Part shown: in pieces, positions 1,651-32,046 of the stretch | Numbering within the stretch: position 1 is the first letter of the stretch | Layout: the number at the start of each line of letters is the position of its first letter | IMG/VR virus record: IMGVR_UViG_3300018481_000002 | Coordinates: 87,199 to 147,685 of that record | Direction: 5' to 3' (one strand) | DNA: 60,487 bases | DNA from: a virus | Taxonomy: Duplodnaviria; Heunggongvirae; Uroviricota; Caudoviricetes | Position numbers and translations under genes: made by a program | The notes under the pieces: generated by a model | Seen by the model: only the letters and a program-made list of their open reading frames with translations | The model's database searches: none | Told to the model about the DNA's origin: nothing

Positions 1651-1721
1651 TTGCTCCGGTCGGAATCGAACCGACGGTCTCCGACGTCAGGGCCGGTGAG
1701 TTGCCATTACTCTACAGAGTT
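1651..1721 (-). tRNA. Degenerate tRNA-Gln(CTG)-like gene (probable pseudo-tRNA)
   Basis: Intact D arm (GAGT/ACTC) and T arm (GTCGG-TTCGATT-CCGAC); anticodon stem CCGGC/GTCGG with a 6-nt loop CCTGAC; top 2 acceptor pairs mismatched. Confidence 0.65.
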
Positions 1722-19544: not shown

Positions 19545-19564
19545 GGCTAATCCCCTCGGCATGA

Positions 19565-19601
19565 GAAAGGCCCCCGGTCCTCACGGATCGGGGGCCTTTT
19601 C
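19565..19601. terminator. Bidirectional terminator (MCP operon and leftward GGY-NN array)
   Basis: GAAAGGCCCCCGG...CGGGGGCCTTTT. Confidence 0.85.
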
Positions 19602-19641
19602 CTTGCGCTACCGTTCGCACGCCTCTTGGGCTACCGAACGC

Positions 19642-20358: not shown

Positions 20359-20369
20359 GCACACACCAT

Positions 20370-20431
20370 GGCATGGCAGAGGCTCGGCTAAGCGCGGCAC
20401 TGCACGGCCAGGCAGAGGCACGGCAAGGCAA
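20370..20431 (+). ncRNA. GGY-NN pentamer array C (in the 5' leader of the RAMP gene)
   Basis: ggcat ggcag(a) ggctc ggcta agcgc ggcac tgcac ggcca ggcag(a) ggcac ggcaa ggcaa. Confidence 0.8.
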
Positions 20432-20462
20432 CAACCACACATGAAGCCATTGGAGGCTCAAC

Positions 20463-21044
20463 TTGAAGGTAACCATCGAGATTGACGGCACCCAGCCGCT
20501 TCTCATGCACGCAGACACCCTCGCGGACCCGCTGGACCCGCTGACCAAGGAGTTCAAGCGACTCTCCGGGAAGCGGTCCAAGACCGACGAGGACCACGAG
20601 GCCATGGCGGAGAAGGAGTTCCTCGCCAGCCTCTACCTCGATGACGGCGGCGAGATCTGCATCCCCGCAGCCAACATCAAGAAGTGCCTCATCGAGGGAG
20701 GCCGCATCACCAAGTCCGGGGCCAAGATCGAACGTGGCCTCACGCTCCTGGGCATCGACTTCGTCCTGAAGCACACCGGTCCGGCACTCCCGGCTGACCT
20801 GTACCAGGACCCGAAGTTCGTGGACAGGCGTTCCGTGAAGGTCGGCACCGCCCGCACCATGCGTGTCCGTCCCCGCTTCAACGACTGGTCCCTGCGAGTG
20901 GAGTGCGACATCGACCCCGCCGTGTGTTCCATCGATGACCTGAAGGACATCGCGACCAACGCCGGTTCCCTGGTGGGTCTCGGTGACCACCGCAAGATCG
21001 GCGGATACGGACGTTTCGTGGCGAAGGTGAGGAAGAACCCGTGA
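20463..21044 (+). CDS. Stand-alone RAMP / Cas7-like RNA-binding protein
   Basis: Beta1 VTIEIDGTQPLLMH, IPAANIKKCL helix and Gly-rich loop GLGDHRKIGGYGRF; GGAGG RBS, TTG start. Confidence 0.85.
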   Translation: MKVTIEIDGTQPLLMHADTLADPLDPLTKEFKRLSGKRSKTDEDHEAMAEKEFLASLYLDDGGEICIPAANIKKCLIEGGRITKSGAKIERGLTLLGIDFVLKHTGPALPADLYQDPKFVDRRSVKVGTARTMRVRPRFNDWSLRVECDIDPAVCSIDDLKDIATNAGSLVGLGDHRKIGGYGRFVAKVRKNP

Positions 21045-21553
21045 GGCCGTTCGCGCCGAAGGGTGAGCAGCCTGAGTGGCGGATGCTCTACGACCTGGTT
21101 ACGGGTTCGGCTGTAGACACGGTGTTCCCGTACGACGACTTCGACCGGGCGCTTGGTCGGGACTTCCGGGAGAACCGGACCCCCCTGGCCCGTGTACAGA
21201 AGGAACTCCTGCGGGAGGACAAGCGGGTCCTGGTCAACGTACGCGGCGTCGGGTACCGGATCGCTCAGGCTCGGGAGCACGGCGAACTGGCTGTGGGTCA
21301 GCGGCAGCGTGCCCGTCGTGCCGTGGACAAGGGTGTTCAGATCGTTGCTGGCGCTGACCAGTCCTCTCTGACCCCGAAGGAACGGCAGCGGCTGACGGAG
21401 ATCGAGGTCAACCTGCGTGCTCAGGCGAACATGCTTCGCCGGACTGAGGCTCGGGTGGCCGTTTTGGAGAAGTCCGCGAAGCATTCGGACGACCGTCTGG
21501 ACATGCTGCTGGCTGAACTGAAGCGGAAGGGCTTGGTCGAGACGATCGACTAA
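21041..21553 (+). CDS. Winged-helix-like plus coiled-coil protein coupled to the RAMP gene
   Basis: GTGA overlap; wing motif NVRGVGYRI; C-terminal heptads. Confidence 0.75.
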   Translation: MRPFAPKGEQPEWRMLYDLVTGSAVDTVFPYDDFDRALGRDFRENRTPLARVQKELLREDKRVLVNVRGVGYRIAQAREHGELAVGQRQRARRAVDKGVQIVAGADQSSLTPKERQRLTEIEVNLRAQANMLRRTEARVAVLEKSAKHSDDRLDMLLAELKRKGLVETID

Positions 21554-21660: not shown

Positions 21661-21739
21661 GGGGCAGGATGGGTTCGACAGCGACGTAAGTCCGCATGCG
21701 GGACGCCGCTGGACCAGGGTTCGACTCCCTGCTGCTCCA
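21661..21739 (+). ncRNA. Minimal tmRNA-like RNA (tRNA-like domain only)
   Basis: 5' GGGGCAG-GATGGGTTCGAC; 3' GAC-CAGGG-TTCGACT-CCCTG-CTGCTCC-A; G3:U70 pair; no tag ORF or pseudoknots. Confidence 0.8.
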
Positions 21740-21895
21740 CGGGAGGAGATGCCCGAGAAGGAACCTGGTGTCCAGTCTGGGTCGCTCCCACGCTGAAACA
21801 CGCTGAACCAGGATCCATCCAGAGGGAAAGGCGCAGGTTCTAGACTCCCTGTGCTGGATACGCTGGGGGTCTACTGGCCAGCTCTCCTCTCTCCT

Positions 21896-26995: not shown

Positions 26996-28528
26996 ATGGC
27001 GATCAAGGCAGGACAGATCCTGCACGTGATGAACCAGTTCGTCGTCGACCGCATTCAGACGGCAGGCCCCGGCGACCTGAACATCCCGCAGGAGAAGGTC
27101 TACGAGCTGGGTAACTACCAGTCGGTGGGCATCGTTCGCGACGTTCCGGACCTGTCTTTCAACCTTGAGTGTCTCGACGTAGACACTGAGGTTGAGGCGC
27201 TGCTCGTTGGCCGGACGGATCCCTACGGGGACACGACCAGCACGAAGTACGAGCTGGCCCTGAACAAGGCCGTCGACATCGTCAGCCCGTGGAAGACGCC
27301 CTATGGGGAGTTCGCTGCGGTCAACGGTGTGGCTGTCCCGGGCCTGGCCCTGGAGAGCGCGTCCTACCGTTACGGGCTTCAGGAGAATGCGGGAGAGACC
27401 TTCACCCTCAACGGTGACGCGATCTACTACACCCCTGGACACCCGTGGCAGGACGTTTTTGTCGGCGACGGTTCGACTGTCGCTTACGCGTTCGACAACG
27501 GTCCGGCGCTTCTGTACTCCGAGGGTGGCACGAGCTTCTACGCTCTGTCGGTCTCGGTGAATGGTGTGCGTTTGACTCAGATCCCGCGTGCGGACTTGGC
27601 GGCTGCGACTACGGCTGGTGACACTGAGGTGTACGCACCGCAGACCACGGCTACCGCTGGTATCGAGTTTGCGATTGCTCCGGCTCTCAACGCGGTCATC
27701 AGCGTTGTCTACGCTTCGGCGGTCGACGGTGACTACCCGCAGACTGGGGTTACTCCGTACGGCACGGGTACTGGCCACCTCACTCACCAGAGTGTGGCGG
27801 TCAAGCCTGCGGCTATCCGGGGTAAGGACATCGACGTCTACTTTGCGACGTTGAGTGCTGTTGGTGGCGGTGTCACCAACAAGGCGCTGACGTCCAACGT
27901 GGCGACGATCACCACTTCGACTTCGCACGGTCTCACGACTGGCGACCTGGTTGTGGTGGCCATCGGTGACGCGGTGTTTGACGGCACCTACACGGTGGCT
28001 TCGACGCCGACCGGTACCACGTTCACTTACGCCAGGACCAACGCGAATGTCACTTCGACGGCTGCGACTGGTACTGCGAGTGAGTCGATCGAATCTCGTT
28101 GGCCCGACGTTCAGTCGGCCACCGTCGAGTGGCGGGTCACCCTGGAGGAGGACTACGAGTTCGGTAACGCTCGCGCGGTCTCGCGTGAGGCGACCGATGT
28201 TCCGGCTGTGACCGGGTCCATCGAGATCCGTCCTCGGTCCGTGGAGGCGTTCTTCGCGCGTCTGCGGCAGATCACGGGTGTTGCTGCTGGCCAGGTCATC
28301 GGCCCGCAGTCCTCGGTTGTTGGTGCCCTTCGTATCGAGCTCCGCAACCCGGAGTCCGGTGGTTCCACCGCTGTCGCGGCTGGTACCGTGCTGAAGACGC
28401 ACTACATCCCGGATGCTCGCTTCACGATCCCTGGCTACTCTGGCCAGGTTCAGCAGAAGCTGAATGTTACGGTCAATTTTGAGTCTGACGGTGGCGTTCT
28501 GGAGGTCTTCAAGGGCCCCCGAGCCTGA
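26996..28528 (+). CDS. Major tail (tube) protein with inserted accessory domains
   Basis: 510 aa, strong codon bias, followed by a terminator; internal ATITTSTSHGLTTGDLVVV...FDGTYTV...TTFTY module. Confidence 0.8.
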   Translation: MAIKAGQILHVMNQFVVDRIQTAGPGDLNIPQEKVYELGNYQSVGIVRDVPDLSFNLECLDVDTEVEALLVGRTDPYGDTTSTKYELALNKAVDIVSPWKTPYGEFAAVNGVAVPGLALESASYRYGLQENAGETFTLNGDAIYYTPGHPWQDVFVGDGSTVAYAFDNGPALLYSEGGTSFYALSVSVNGVRLTQIPRADLAAATTAGDTEVYAPQTTATAGIEFAIAPALNAVISVVYASAVDGDYPQTGVTPYGTGTGHLTHQSVAVKPAAIRGKDIDVYFATLSAVGGGVTNKALTSNVATITTSTSHGLTTGDLVVVAIGDAVFDGTYTVASTPTGTTFTYARTNANVTSTAATGTASESIESRWPDVQSATVEWRVTLEEDYEFGNARAVSREATDVPAVTGSIEIRPRSVEAFFARLRQITGVAAGQVIGPQSSVVGALRIELRNPESGGSTAVAAGTVLKTHYIPDARFTIPGYSGQVQQKLNVTVNFESDGGVLEVFKGPRA

Positions 28529-28645: not shown

Positions 28646-29764
28646 ATGAAGCACCCCATCTATGCCGTGATCGGCGTCGTGTTGTCCACGCTGCTCTGCG
28701 TCGTAGGCTTCTCCCAAGCCACGTCAGCAAAGCCAGGTGACACGAAGGCGGCGAGGAGACCGTCGCCTACGAGAACCGTGACGGTGACAGCTACCGTCCC
28801 CGGTCCGACCGTGACAGCAACAGTGACCGCGACAGCTACGGTTACTGCGACTGTCACCGCGACTGTGACTGCGTCGCCGTCCCCCACGGCCACCCAGACG
28901 ACCCCCACGTCCACTCCTACTTCGACCCCCACGAGTCCGGGGACGGCGTTCCCCAACTTGGACACGACAGGTGTTCCAGCTGGATGGGTTCCCACCTCGA
29001 CTCGGACGACCAACCTGGTCATCAGCACCCCAGGGACAGTTGTGACGGATGTCCGTTTGGACAACAGCGCCAACATCATCGTGAACGCCGCGAATGTCAC
29101 CTTGCGGCGGGTCCATCTGCGTGGCGGCTACATCGAGAACTTCGCGGGGTCCACCTGTCACAACGGGCTACTGATCGAAGACTCCACCCTTGAGCCACCG
29201 GTCGGCCAGAGTGCCTACCCGGTCGAACGCTGGCGGATCGGAACAGGTGGCTACACCGCTCGTGGTGTCGAGCTGATCAACGCCCCAGACGGCTACCGGG
29301 TGGGTGGCGACTCTGGTGGATGTGGTCCAGTGACCATCGAGAACTCCTTCATCTCGGTCAAGCCTCCCCAGACCTGTGGGGACTGGCACGGTGACGGCAT
29401 CCAGGGCTACGACGGACCCCACGTGAACGTCCTGAACACGACCATCGACATGGACGCAACCGGGTGTGGTGGCACCGCGCCGTTCTTCGTTCCTTCAGGG
29501 CAGGGCAACACCTCGGCCACCGTCGACCGGCTTCTGATCGCAGGACCCAACGGGAACTATTCGTTCCGCATGGGCGTGCCAGGAACTGTGAACCACCTGC
29601 GGATCGAGAACAACGGTTGGTCCTACGGTCCGTTGGATGTGAAGTGCTCGGTCATCCCTTCGTGGGAGGCGAAGATCGTTGGTCCGGTAGATCGTACGGC
29701 GGGCGGCTATGCCGAACCTGCCACGGTGCGAGACCAGCCGTGCAACACGGAGGGCGGTTCCTGA
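28646..29764 (+). CDS. Secreted protein with Thr/Pro linker and right-handed beta-helix (pectin lyase-like) domain
   Basis: Signal peptide MKHPIYAVIGVVLSTLLCVVGFSQATSA; (TVTA)n linker; VTIENSFI...HGDGIQ beta-helix pattern. Confidence 0.75.
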   Translation: MKHPIYAVIGVVLSTLLCVVGFSQATSAKPGDTKAARRPSPTRTVTVTATVPGPTVTATVTATATVTATVTATVTASPSPTATQTTPTSTPTSTPTSPGTAFPNLDTTGVPAGWVPTSTRTTNLVISTPGTVVTDVRLDNSANIIVNAANVTLRRVHLRGGYIENFAGSTCHNGLLIEDSTLEPPVGQSAYPVERWRIGTGGYTARGVELINAPDGYRVGGDSGGCGPVTIENSFISVKPPQTCGDWHGDGIQGYDGPHVNVLNTTIDMDATGCGGTAPFFVPSGQGNTSATVDRLLIAGPNGNYSFRMGVPGTVNHLRIENNGWSYGPLDVKCSVIPSWEAKIVGPVDRTAGGYAEPATVRDQPCNTEGGS

Positions 29765-29771
29765 TCCAACC

Positions 29772-29810
29772 TCGAACGGCCCATCCCTTGACCCGGGGAT
29801 GGGCCGTTCG
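29772..29810 (+). terminator. Terminator hairpin
   Basis: CGAACGGCCCATCCC...GGGATGGGCCGTTCG. Confidence 0.7.
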
Positions 29811-29915
29811 TTATGTTGTTCGACTGTTGTCTAGCACTCGAAAGGAGGTTCGATGTGGGAGTCCGAAACTAGGGGCGACCAGGGACAGCCCCTGGTTTAG
29901 CCCCTTGGAGGACAA

Positions 29916-30107
29916 GTGGCTGGCAACAACAAGGCGGCTAGCCGTCGCGCTAAGGATCAGGCGATGGCTGAACGTCTCCGCAAGCTCGGCGTGCGTCGCA
30001 CTTCTGGTGCGTGCCCCATGGGTTGCGGTGCCCAGGTTGGACTTGGTGGTCAGGGACTCTTGAACCACCTGCGTATGTGTGGAGGACCGAAGAAGCGCCG
30101 CGTCTGA
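29916..30107 (+). CDS. Small basic Zn-finger-like protein
   Basis: GGAGG RBS; CPMGC...LLNHLRMC; K/R-rich. Confidence 0.7.
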   Translation: MAGNNKAASRRAKDQAMAERLRKLGVRRTSGACPMGCGAQVGLGGQGLLNHLRMCGGPKKRRV

Positions 30108-30114
30108 ACGCGAG

Positions 30115-30146
30115 GAAAGGCCCCGGATCGAAACCCGGGGCCTTTC
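30115..30146. terminator. Bidirectional terminator
   Basis: GAAAGGCCCCGG...CCGGGGCCTTTC; also closes array E. Confidence 0.8.
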
Positions 30147-30148
30147 TC

Positions 30149-30235
30149 ATGCCTCGCTTCGCCTCTGCATCGCCAAGCCTTGCCTACGCCGTGGCACGCC
30201 TTGCCAAACCTTGCCGGGCCGGGCCACGCAATGTC
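30149..30235 (-). ncRNA. GGY-NN pentamer array E (orphan candidate guide RNA)
   Basis: gacat tgcgt ggccc ggccc ggcaa ggttt ggcaa ggcgt gccac ggcgt(a) ggcaa ggctt ggcga tgcag(a) ggcga agcga ggcat; fills the space exactly between a stop codon and a terminator. Confidence 0.8.
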
Positions 30236-30595
30236 TCATCGCACGTTGCTGTACAGGGAGGTCCCTGCGACAAACTGCCCCTTCCAGTTCCAGTTGTTCA
30301 TGACCCAGGACTGGAACTCGTGGTCATCCAGTTCGACGTGGTCCTCGACCTCCATCTCCAACCTGGCGATCACCAGGTCGTAGGAGTCGAGGTAGTGCTT
30401 CGGCTTCGGGAGTTCGCTGAGCGGCGTCAAGGTGATGACACCCTCCTTGGTGGCCAGGTCTGAGGCCTTCTTCAGAGCCTTGGTGGCCTCCTTCTTCCAG
30501 ACCTTCTTGGCCTTCTCGAACTCCTTCTTGTGCTCTTCGCGGTTCGTCTTCAGCTTCGTCAACAGGTCGTCTTTGCTGACCTTGGTTAGATCCAC
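30236..30595 (-). CDS. Conserved phage hypothetical protein
   Basis: LLTKLKTNREEHKKEF...YDLVIARLEM...ELDDHEFQSWVMNNWNWK; GAGGAGG RBS. Confidence 0.8.
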   Translation of the reverse strand: MDLTKVSKDDLLTKLKTNREEHKKEFEKAKKVWKKEATKALKKASDLATKEGVITLTPLSELPKPKHYLDSYDLVIARLEMEVEDHVELDDHEFQSWVMNNWNWKGQFVAGTSLYSNVR

Positions 30596-30774
30596 TCTGC
30601 CTCCTCAGGCATCTAAAGGGTGGGCGACCTAACAGCTAGCACTCTCTCTGGTCCTGTCGGAGACCGTCGAGAGCCTGGGTCTTGGAGCGGGGGAGCTCCG
30701 CAGGGTCCCTGGTTTGCCGCCCGTCTACTACGGGCCCTTTTTCGAACCTTCATTCTAGCACTCTGTGGGCCAGA

Positions 30775-30802
30775 TTCATTCCCCCGCCAAGGCTGTCGAT
30801 GA
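30775..30802 (+). promoter_or_regulatory. Sigma28/WhiG-type late promoter (chaperone-tape measure operon)
   Basis: TTCATT-N14-GTCGATGA. Confidence 0.72.
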
Positions 30803-30865
30803 CCCGTCGAAGCTACCGACCGGAAGTGCGTGGTCGGCTGGCCAGGAACAGAGACAGGACGGGCT

Positions 30866-31786
30866 ATGACCTCAAGGAACATCCGCGCACGCAGGATGCT
30901 CAGCGATCTCTTCGCTGAAGGCGTCGAAATCCGTTTCGGACGAGACGAAGAAGGCAACAGCTGGGGTAAGATCGGCCCCTTCCTCGATAGCCGAGGTGAC
31001 CGGGCAGCACTGCCCGACGACCAGGTGGCTATGTACATCCGTCCTGCTGACCCTCTCCAGAGGGACATGTCGATGCGGGAAGCCAACGCTCGCCGTGCCC
31101 GTGCTCTCGTCAGGGCCAAGCGCGACAAGGACTCCGAAGAGCACCTCACTATTGTCGCGTTTCTTACCGACATGTCTGACGAGACACTTATCGATTATAT
31201 TTTGATGGGTGATACGCAGTATCGGCAGGCCGAAGCTGAACGCGAGATCCTCGCCATGGATGAGTGGAAGGAAATGGACGCGTATCAGGATGCGATGCGG
31301 CAGTTCGACAACGTCCCCGTCGAGGACCTGGCCGACAACGAGGAGTGGGAAGCGCTCCTGGAGTTGGACCGGAAGTACGGCAAGCAGCTGACTGACCGCG
31401 AGAAGGAACTGCGGGACGCTCAGCGTGAGGTGCTGCGGATGCAGACCAACGCAGGGCAGCGGCAGGAACTGGAAAACAAGGCCTTGGAGCGTCGGGCTGA
31501 GCTGGTAGGTACGCAGGCGTTCATGGACGAGTACGAGCTGTGCATGCAGTTCTACTCAGTGAGGGACGTGGACGACAACTCGAAGACGTTCTTCGATAAG
31601 CCAGAGGAGCTAGCACAGCAACCTCAGGTGGTACGGGACACGATCAATGAAGCTCTCCTGCCGTTCATCACAGACGTGGAGTCGGCAAAAAACTCGCGAA
31701 GGGCGGTGTCTGGCTCGGAGCCGTCAGAGCCGCCCAGCAAGCCGGAGACTTCAGAGCCCTCTACCCCCGAGGCGCAGACCGCCTGA
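30866..31786 (+). CDS. Tail assembly chaperone (gpG-like)
   Basis: Between MTP and TMP; carries a slippery site near its 3' end. Confidence 0.8.
   Translation: MTSRNIRARRMLSDLFAEGVEIRFGRDEEGNSWGKIGPFLDSRGDRAALPDDQVAMYIRPADPLQRDMSMREANARRARALVRAKRDKDSEEHLTIVAFLTDMSDETLIDYILMGDTQYRQAEAEREILAMDEWKEMDAYQDAMRQFDNVPVEDLADNEEWEALLELDRKYGKQLTDREKELRDAQREVLRMQTNAGQRQELENKALERRAELVGTQAFMDEYELCMQFYSVRDVDDNSKTFFDKPEELAQQPQVVRDTINEALLPFITDVESAKNSRRAVSGSEPSEPPSKPETSEPSTPEAQTA
31687..31693 (+). other. -1 programmed ribosomal frameshift site A-AAA-AAC
   Basis: In-frame GCA AAA AAC; the -1 frame is open (KKLAKGGVWLG...TDIPWFLQVAVEQ...) through to the stop at 32046. Confidence 0.88.
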
Positions 31787-32046
31787 CAGACATCCCGTGG
31801 TTCTTGCAGGTGGCCGTGGAACAAGCACTGACGATCATCAGCTGGATGCAGAATCTTCCTGAAGATGAGATCCCTCCGGAGCACTTGTGGGAGGACACAG
31901 AGGGACTGGAACTGTGGTGGAAAGCCGTCGATGTTAAGCGTAAGGACGGAGCATCCATCAGTAGGGGACCGACTGATCACGCCCAAGACGATCAAGGCCC
32001 GCAACAGACCGAGAACGACTACGCGCGGTTCTTGAAGCGAGGGTAG
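31688..32046 (+). CDS. Frameshift extension of the tail chaperone (gpGT-like C-terminus)
   Basis: The -1 frame includes the ORF 31804-32046 and ends just before the TMP. Confidence 0.82.

What the first reader, a model, noticed from the sequence alone, without database searches (positions are those of the whole stretch)
30149..30595. Orphan GGY-NN array 10 kb from the RAMP, filling a 3' UTR exactly
Seen: 17 units start at the base after the stop codon of 30236-30595 (minus strand) and end 2 nt before a bidirectional terminator, inside a moron block between the MTP and the chaperone. Inference: guides are dispersed and can act in trans, and can be acquired attached to passenger genes. More may exist outside this window.
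Basis: partly seen in the sequence, partly recalled or inferred. Interest (0 to 1): 0.72.

Follow-up and report, generated by a model that had tools for sequence, protein, structure and literature searches.

The report
Lone VIPR guide RNA gene
This five-base repeat run is a stand-alone guide-RNA gene of the phage's VIPR system (a CRISPR-like, RNA-guided DNA-silencing system described in 2026), and its code spells the conserved end of the phage family's main tail-tube gene, including the phage's own copy 1.7 kb away.

Summary
On the minus strand, 30235-30149 is a 5-nt periodic GGYNN array: 12 exact GGY units, 4 one-off units and two +1 slips. It runs from the stop codon of the 119-aa gene to a strong bidirectional hairpin.

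The kind is known. It is a vrRNA-type array of a VIPR system (three 2026 bioRxiv preprints). The phage's 193-aa ORF at 20463-21044 matches the solved SUSP1 Vipr protein (E 9e-38). Solo vrRNAs away from vipr were published in October 2026.

New here:
- Read by the published 1-nt-skip rule, units 1-12 match the phage's own major tail tube gene at 28448-28482 in 21 of 24 positions. The match is in codon register. No shuffle of 3000 reached it.
- The orthologous site is the best hit in all seven relatives tested. None matches better than self.
- No other array of this genome has such a self hit.

"Acquired with a passenger gene" is not supported. In nine other contexts the gene's homologues sit in tight early operons without arrays, so the gene was relocated here.

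There is no RNA evidence. This scan noted the same "solo guide beside its near-target" pattern earlier on other phage DNA (e1-5360538, e1-5347215). Verdict: a new member of a known kind, with an open self-targeting question.

The parts
30165..30230 (-). Guide part of array E: 13 GGYNN units (TGCGT ... TGCAG) with one extra A at 30185. NN code: GT CC CC AA TT AA GT AC GT AA TT GA AG.
   Evidence: Read directly; periodicity statistics; target match. GGCAG/TGCAG is the usual last unit of arrays in this phage and in relative L001.
30108..30164 (-). Probable 3' tail of the RNA: A + GGCGA AGCGA GGCAT + GA + 14-bp hairpin (30146-30113). An outer stem GCGAG/CUCGC draws units 15-16 into the structure. 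The hairpin also serves as a bidirectional terminator.
   Evidence: Fold, MFE and centroid. The 17-mer GGCATGAGAAAGGCCCC plus hairpin occurs only twice in the genome, here and after the capsid gene next to array A.
30236..30595 (-). 119-aa gene of unknown function (phrog_34511) whose 3' UTR is the array. It is relocated from the early region.
   Evidence: The model is a long helix plus a small alpha/beta part with no PDB match.
30752..30760 (-). Candidate extended -10 promoter TGCTAGAAT for the cassette. Unverified.
   Evidence: Read directly. Unchanged in the ~96% identical variant of run X1, although the intergenic region carries 18 substitutions. The consensus scan found no sigma-70-type site on the minus strand.
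28448..28494 (+). Near-cognate site of guide E in the phage's own major tail tube gene (codons VQQKLNVTVNFESDGG). NN pairs fall on codon positions 1-2 and the skipped base on the wobble position.
   Evidence: 21/24 for units 1-12, 21/26 for units 1-13, 24/32 for all 16. Nulls: 0 of 3000, 3 of 3000 and 1 of 1500 shuffles.
26996..28528 (+). Major tail tube protein gene (510 aa), the gene that holds the target site.
   Evidence: Foldseek: T1, FCWL1, P74-26 and T5 tail tubes. Atlas lead: Phage_tube_2.
20463..21044 (+). Vipr (RAMP) gene, the only one in the 147.7-kb genome and the presumed partner of E.
   Evidence: phmmer against PDB 36pp_D 'SUSP1 Vipr protein', E 9.1e-38. H17, K33, R138, D177 and R179 are conserved; W178 is His (residues from 10.64898/2026.04.26.720927). 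Single copy.
29916..30107 (+). Convergent 63-aa ORF that ends 5 nt before the shared hairpin.

Best explanation
Array E is a solo vrRNA gene of the phage's own VIPR system.

Inferred: it is transcribed on the minus strand as the 3' end of the mRNA of a relocated 119-aa gene and ends at a strong hairpin. About 13 GGYNN units are each bound by one Vipr protomer, made from the single vipr gene 9.1 kb away. The last three units plus the hairpin form the 3' cap.

Shown: under the published rule (the NN of each unit pairs, and one target base is skipped) the guide spells, in codon register, the conserved C-terminal motif VQQKLNVTVNFE of the major tail tube gene. This is the best site in the phage's own genome (21/24) and in every relative tested (18-21/24).

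Inferred: the Vipr-E filament binds this DNA and blocks transcription at the end of the tube gene, and so into the tail genes behind it, in genomes of this phage family. I cannot decide whether that serves to exclude co-infecting relatives or to regulate the phage's own tail operon, because the self site matches as well as any relative's.
For: (1) The array is real and of GGYNN type. It satisfies the published vrRNA definition: YNNGG tandem repeats, at least 4 units, internal degeneracy frequent (10.64898/2026.04.26.720920).

(2) A Vipr with five of the six residues named in the structure paper conserved is encoded in the genome, once.

(3) Target.
- Units 1-9, which involve no slip, already pick window 28448 as the genome's best site (15/18). 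The three units after the first +1 slip then match 6/6 in the same register.
- Units 1-12 give 21/24. Unit-order shuffles give a mean of 16.7 and a maximum of 20; 0 of 3000 reach 21.
- Almost every 9-, 12- or 13-unit sub-window of E selects the same site.
- The match is wobble-aligned, as reported for natural VIPR targets.
- In seven other phages the best hit within each 4.6-13 kb locus is the orthologous site.
- The eight other arrays scanned (D was not) have no above-null self hit.

(4) A ~95% identical variant of the array in runs X1 and X2 has four substitutions. Two are C/U exchanges at Y3, one is A>G restoring a GG, and one is in an NN. No G of a GGY is lost.

(5) Solo vrRNAs acting with a Vipr encoded elsewhere are shown experimentally for SUSP1 and its satellites.
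Against: - There is no RNA evidence: no RNA holder is listed. Transcript ends, processing and Vipr binding are all inferred.
- There is no promoter-like site directly before the array, and the cassette promoter is unverified.
- The array has two +1 slips and four degenerate units, so one continuous filament is an assumption. Only the target match across the first slip supports it.
- The arrays of this phage share no conserved 3' tail like the SUSP1 pseudoknot tail, which in SUSP1 is treated as needed for complex formation.
- The guide boundaries were chosen after seeing the match. With all 16 units the match is 75%, below the papers' 80% cut-off.
- No allele matches better than self among 120 close homologues and 148 cluster representatives. 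The Gln-Gln codons opposite units 2-3 (CC CC) were Gln-Gln in almost all of them. A weapon-with-self-immunity logic is therefore not shown.
Confidence: 0.6

Rival explanations
1. Relic or decoy. E is a decaying vrRNA array, or a Vipr sponge, that still binds Vipr but no longer directs it anywhere useful. The tube-gene match is a fossil of a former target.
For: Two register slips; 4 of 16 units degenerate; no shared tail. Only 75% NN match over all units, and units 13-16 match at chance level, 3/8. No better target found anywhere. Decoy roles for solo vrRNAs are published.
Against: The array persists, with GGY-preserving changes and one consensus-restoring change, in a variant seen in two studies. 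Degeneracy of this order is also seen in the large arrays next to vipr and at the strand switch. The core match of 17/18 over units 4-12 is too good for an abandoned guide.
Confidence: 0.2
2. Cis-acting 3' UTR. The repeats are a Vipr-binding platform that stabilises or regulates the mRNA of the 119-aa gene, and they do not act as a guide.
For: The array fills the 3' UTR exactly and has no promoter of its own. Other arrays of this phage lie directly in front of ribosome-binding sites, for example D before vipr, so cis effects on mRNAs are conceivable.
Against: Nine homologous genes elsewhere do without any array. A cis role does not explain the codon-registered match to the tube gene.
Confidence: 0.08
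3. Not an RNA element: a chance GC-rich periodic stretch or a DNA-level structural spacer beside a terminator.
For: None beyond its small size and the lack of expression data.
Against: 0 of 5000 shuffles reach its GGY count or its 5-nt spacing. The same unit type occurs in ten other arrays of a genome that encodes Vipr.
Confidence: 0.03

Closest known systems
Solo (orphan) vrRNAs of F5 satellites and SUSP1-family phages (bioRxiv 10.64898/2026.10.15.759431)
   Same: A GGYNN guide array encoded away from any vipr-vap operon and expected to load onto a Vipr made elsewhere. Its predicted target is wobble-aligned in a conserved coding sequence of a competing or related element.
   Different: Those sit on satellites or on VIPR-null phages, at the old vipr locus, and carry the conserved SUSP1 pseudoknot tail. 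E sits in a VIPR-positive phage, 9 kb from vipr in the tail module, as the 3' UTR of an unrelated gene. It ends in a terminator hairpin, and its best match includes the phage's own genome, whereas published self-match scores were lower than non-self.
Canonical vrRNAs of type II VIPR (Escherichia phage SUSP1, P. fulva prophage; bioRxiv 10.64898/2026.04.26.720920 and .720927)
   Same: 9-16 GGY/NN repeats followed by a structured 3' end. The Vipr of this phage aligns to SUSP1 Vipr over its whole length (E 9e-38), with the G1, G2 and Y3 contact residues kept except W178 (His here).
   Different: No pseudoknot tail is recognisable. There are 6-nt units (+1 slips) inside the array. The gene after vipr (170 aa) has no tblastn match in the phage collection, so type II membership is not shown. 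The papers report no self-target at or above 80% NN match.
Virus-borne mini-CRISPR arrays used in conflicts between related viruses
   Same: A virus carries a very small guide locus, without the effector genes beside it, whose guide matches conserved genes of close relatives.
   Different: Those use contiguous spacers and host Cas proteins, and they avoid exact self matches. Here the code is gapped, the effector is the phage's own, and self is matched as well as relatives.
3'-UTR-derived bacterial small RNAs such as CpxQ or SroC
   Same: A regulatory RNA that shares the terminator of an upstream mRNA and needs no promoter of its own.
   Different: Those act by contiguous RNA-RNA pairing with Hfq. 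E would guide a RAMP filament to DNA. Processing from the mRNA is only inferred here.

Membership tests
VIPR vrRNA | Tandem YNNGG/GGYNN pentamers, at least 4 units, internal degeneracy allowed (methods of 10.64898/2026.04.26.720920) | tested here: met
   12 exact and 4 near units; 0 of 5000 shuffles reach the count or the spacing.
VIPR vrRNA | A Vipr (minimal RAMP) protein available to bind it | tested here: met
   193-aa ORF at 20463-21044 against PDB 36pp_D, E 9.1e-38; single copy in the genome. Binding itself was not tested.
VIPR vrRNA | GGY conserved while NN vary between related copies | tested here: inconclusive
   Only one variant lineage is available (runs X1 and X2). It has 4 substitutions: 2 Y-to-Y, 1 restoring GG, 1 in NN. 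No GG is lost. The sample is too small.
VIPR vrRNA | Natural target with at least 80% NN match under the 1-nt-skip rule, usually wobble-aligned in a coding sequence | tested here: met
   87.5% for units 1-12 and 81% for units 1-13, wobble-aligned, in the tube gene. Only 75% if all 16 units are counted.
VIPR vrRNA | Expressed as a small RNA of about 100 nt that co-purifies with Vipr | not testable with these tools
   No RNA run holds the stretch. The contigs laid are DNA or of uncertain kind.
Type II VIPR (SUSP1 clade) | Invariant 3' tail with pseudoknot after the repeats | tested here: not met
   The sequences after the eleven arrays share no common tail. E and A end at terminator hairpins, and the others run into ribosome-binding sites or a tRNA.
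Type II VIPR (SUSP1 clade) | vap1 accessory gene next to vipr | tested here: inconclusive
   A 170-aa gene overlaps the vipr stop (21041-21553, phrog_5926), but it has no tblastn match in the phage collection. I did not confirm that SUSP1 is in that collection.
Solo vrRNA | Encoded without vipr and vap genes beside it | tested here: met
   9.1 kb from vipr. The neighbours are the tube gene, unknown cargo genes, the gene before the tape measure and the tape-measure gene.

The most novel reading that the evidence does not exclude
A VIPR-positive phage keeps a guide directed at a conserved site of its own essential tail tube gene, placed 1.7 kb from that site. There are two possible readings. In the first, VIPR is used for self-regulation: an RNA-guided roadblock at the end of the tube gene controls transcription into the cargo block and towards the convergent cassette. 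In the second, guide and target allele form a linked pair that must be inherited together when mosaic relatives recombine. Both would extend VIPR from inter-element warfare to self-directed control. They would also imply that Vipr filaments read through 6-nt units.
Probability: 0.22. Interest if true: 0.7.

Novelty: new member of a known kind. Interest (0 to 1): 0.45.

Why it matters
VIPR was described only in 2026, and its natural biology is known from one E. coli phage-satellite pair. This locus adds four things:
- a solo guide inside a VIPR-positive, probably actinobacterial, 148-kb phage;
- a guide that rides on the 3' UTR of an unrelated gene;
- a statistically solid, wobble-aligned match to an essential structural gene that the phage itself carries;
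- a natural test of whether an extra base between repeat units is tolerated.

If the self match is functional, it contradicts the published observation that vrRNAs avoid their own contig. It would then point either to self-regulation or to linkage between guides and resistant or tolerated target alleles. This scan has now noted that pattern in three phages.

Tried and rejected
- Relatives by DNA: no match in the phage collection for 29400-31900. Protein-pattern scans of viral contigs with the 306-aa and 119-aa proteins found no relatives.
- Target search outside the family: the exact core pattern AANYTNAANGTNACNGTNAANTTNGA in metagenome and viral contigs gave mostly low-GC chance hits. The flanks added nothing, and the only family members found score 24/32, like self.
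- A target model with an extra skipped base at each slip gave only null-level hits.
- Units 10-16 alone gave null-level hits.
- RNA evidence: no RNA holder listed. One run labelled RNA-Seq is probably DNA and holds only fragments.
- Rfam: nothing at the array.
- The model of the 119-aa protein has no PDB match, and the atlas gave no usable hit.
- An internal promoter in the 3' end of the 119-aa gene: only a poor TACAGC with no -35 (read by eye); the scan found none.
- The GAGTGCTAG motif (three copies on the minus strand): one copy is mutated in the X1 variant, so I do not treat the motif as a conserved signal.

Full report
**1. Observation**

The minus strand after the TGA stop of ORF 30236-30595 reads GACAT TGCGT GGCCC GGCCC GGCAA GGTTT GGCAA GGCGT GCCAC GGCGT A GGCAA GGCTT GGCGA TGCAG A GGCGA AGCGA GGCAT GA. 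A 14-bp hairpin follows at 30146-30113.

Twelve units are exact GGY. Four are one base off. Two extra A's shift the register twice.

Against 5000 dinucleotide-preserving shuffles:
- The GGY count is 12 versus 6.5+-1.4.
- The number of spacings of exactly 5 nt is 7 versus 0.44.
- No shuffle reaches either value.

A scan of the whole 147,685-bp genome, of which the window is 87199-147685, finds eleven such arrays. Four lie around a tRNA-Met next to ORF 20463-21044. Five lie at a strand-switch region at genome 77165-78438. E stands alone.

**2. What kind of thing it is**

I checked this myself.

Three 2026 preprints describe Viral Interference Programmable Repeat systems. A minimal RAMP protein, Vipr, polymerises along a vrRNA made of GGY/NN pentamers, one protomer per unit. 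The NN pairs base-pair with DNA while one target base per unit is skipped. The skipped base usually falls on the codon wobble position. Binding silences transcription.

The 193-aa ORF at 20463-21044 matches the solved SUSP1 Vipr protein (PDB 36pp_D) over its whole length at E 9.1e-38. The residues that the structure paper names for G1, G2, Y3 and the skipped base are conserved (H17, K33, R138, D177, R179), except W178, which is His. It is the only Vipr in the genome.

E is thus a vrRNA-type array 9.1 kb from its presumed protein. That makes it a 'solo vrRNA' in the sense of the October 2026 preprint, which found such RNAs on satellites and on VIPR-null phages.

**3. Surroundings**

The 510-aa protein upstream (26996-28528) folds like siphophage tail tubes: T1, FCWL1, P74-26 and T5. 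The 306-aa gene downstream precedes the 3078-aa tape-measure gene.

Between these two genes every relative carries different cargo:
- a TIG-domain protein;
- an endonuclease VII;
- tRNA-like sequences;
- an M23 peptidase;
- inverted genes.

None of them has an array there.

The 119-aa gene has homologues in nine other contexts. In all of them it lies inside a tight co-directional operon with the next gene 3-15 nt away. In the 144-kb relative it follows a RuvB-like gene in the early region. Our genome keeps the flanking genes there but has its only copy of the 119-aa gene in the tail module, inverted.

The hairpin module GGCATGAGAAAGGCCCC... occurs only twice in the genome: next to E, and after the capsid gene next to array A.

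The cassette was therefore assembled in this lineage from the phage's own parts. The gene is not a habitual carrier of arrays.

A ~95-96% identical copy of the cassette (array, gene and the gene downstream) is present in contigs of run X1. The same array variant and scattered fragments of the neighbouring sequence are present in run X2, from a different study.

**4. Target**

I applied the published rule: NN joined by one wildcard, both strands.
- Units 1-9 involve no slip. Their best site in the genome is window 28448 (15/18).
- Read straight on, the three units after the first extra A match 6/6 at the next three codons.
- Units 1-12 give 21/24. Unit-order shuffles give a mean of 16.7 and a maximum of 20 in 3000.
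- Units 1-13 give 21/26 (3 of 3000 shuffles reach it).
- All 16 units give 24/32 (1 of 1500 unit shuffles and 0 of 1500 base shuffles reach it).

The site encodes VQQKLNVTVNFESDGG, 26 codons from the end of the tube gene. The NN pairs sit on codon positions 1-2.

In seven other family members, some distant, the best hit within each fetched locus is the orthologous site, at 18-21 of 24.

The eight other arrays scanned (D was not) give only null-level self hits.

Units 14-16 match at chance. They fold into an outer stem of the hairpin. TGCAG/GGCAG is the usual last unit of arrays in this phage family. I therefore read units 1-13 as the guide and the remainder as the 3' tail.

The guide boundary was chosen after the fact. 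The site itself does not depend on that choice.

**5. Self or non-self?**

I searched 120 close homologues and 148 cluster representatives of the tube protein's C-terminus. No allele could match better than the phage's own clade.

The codons opposite units 2-3 encode Gln-Gln (CAx) in almost all of these homologues, while the guide has CC CC. The own-site mismatches at Leu (CTG, not TTR) and Ser (TCT, not AGY) are shared by most relatives.

By the papers' 80% criterion, E (units 1-13) would therefore hit the phage's own gene as well as its relatives'. The first VIPR paper found no self hit at or above 80%. The second found self scores lower than non-self scores.

I cannot tell whether 3-5 mismatches spare the target. 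The preprints that I read give no mismatch tolerance.

After finishing this analysis I found that two earlier notes of the scan describe solo guides lying beside near-targets in other phages. My result agrees with them. It does not test them.

**6. Mechanism, with status**

Shown:
- the array type and its statistics;
- Vipr in the genome;
- the codon-registered near-cognate site;
- the relocation of the gene;
- the conservation of the GG positions in one variant lineage.

Inferred:
- transcription from a promoter upstream of the 119-aa gene. The candidate is TGCTAGAAT at 30760-30752, which is unchanged in the variant;
- termination at the hairpin;
- release or protection of a ~120-nt RNA;
- loading of about 13 Vipr protomers;
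- read-through of a 6-nt unit;
- binding at the tube gene and a transcriptional roadblock.

**7. Rivals**

- A relic or decoy array (0.2) fits the slips and the lack of a better target. It fits poorly with the 17/18 core match and with the GGY-preserving changes.
- A purely cis-acting UTR element (0.08) does not explain the target match.
- Chance (0.03) is excluded by the statistics.

**8. Novelty**

The class and the solo form are published, so this is a new member of a known kind. The points worth an experiment are:
- the self match;
- the 3'-UTR ride;
- the 6-nt units;
- the absence of a SUSP1-type tail.

Noticed in passing
L001:16629-17321 (144-kb relative contig) and genome 77165-78438: The relative carries a divergent Vipr (230 aa) directly before its strand-switch arrays. 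It is 27% identical to this phage's Vipr and matches PDB 36pp at E 5e-7. Our genome has five large arrays at the equivalent place but no such gene, only the SUSP1-like Vipr at window 20463. So those arrays have either lost their cognate protein or share the other one.
   Followed up: partly
L151:2384-2770 and L152 (Mycobacterium phage Donkeykong, NC_051648.1 36870-37969): Annotated 'gene 48, hypothetical protein' is in fact a run of about 340 nt of GGCNN pentamers with -1 slips. The next gene, gp49, matches the divergent Vipr of L001 (44% identity, E 3e-40). This is a VIPR system in a cultured M. smegmatis phage whose guide array is mis-annotated as a CDS.
   Followed up: partly
window 19558-19610 (+) and 30153-30100 (-): A terminator module of about 55 nt (GGCATGAGAAAGGCCCC, loop, GGGGCCTTTCCTYGCG) occurs exactly twice in the genome. 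Each copy abuts a GGYNN array, but with the array on opposite sides.
   Followed up: partly
window 29839, 30644, 30763 (minus strand): The 9-mer GAGTGCTAG occurs three times, all on the minus strand within 1 kb around the cassette and nowhere else in the genome. One copy is mutated in the X1 variant. Its function is unknown.
   Followed up: partly
window 20365-20432 (array D) and L001:17363-18476: Register slips are common in this phage family. Array D shows +1 slips (GGCAG A GGC). The relative's arrays show -1 slips (GGCAGGCAAGG), which look like the 'staggered arrays with 1-nt overlap' named in the VIPR paper.
   Followed up: no
window 21661-21742 (+): Rfam scores a very short tmRNA (RF00023, 55.6 bits; gathering score 47) between the vap-like gene and tRNA-Lys.
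   Followed up: no
window 1651-1721 (-): Rfam finds a fourth tRNA (39 bits) that ARAGORN did not report.
   Followed up: no
L149:6423-7414: A more distant relative also has an inverted two-gene insert directly after its tube gene. The place behind the tube gene is therefore a recurrent landing site for minus-strand cargo.
   Followed up: no
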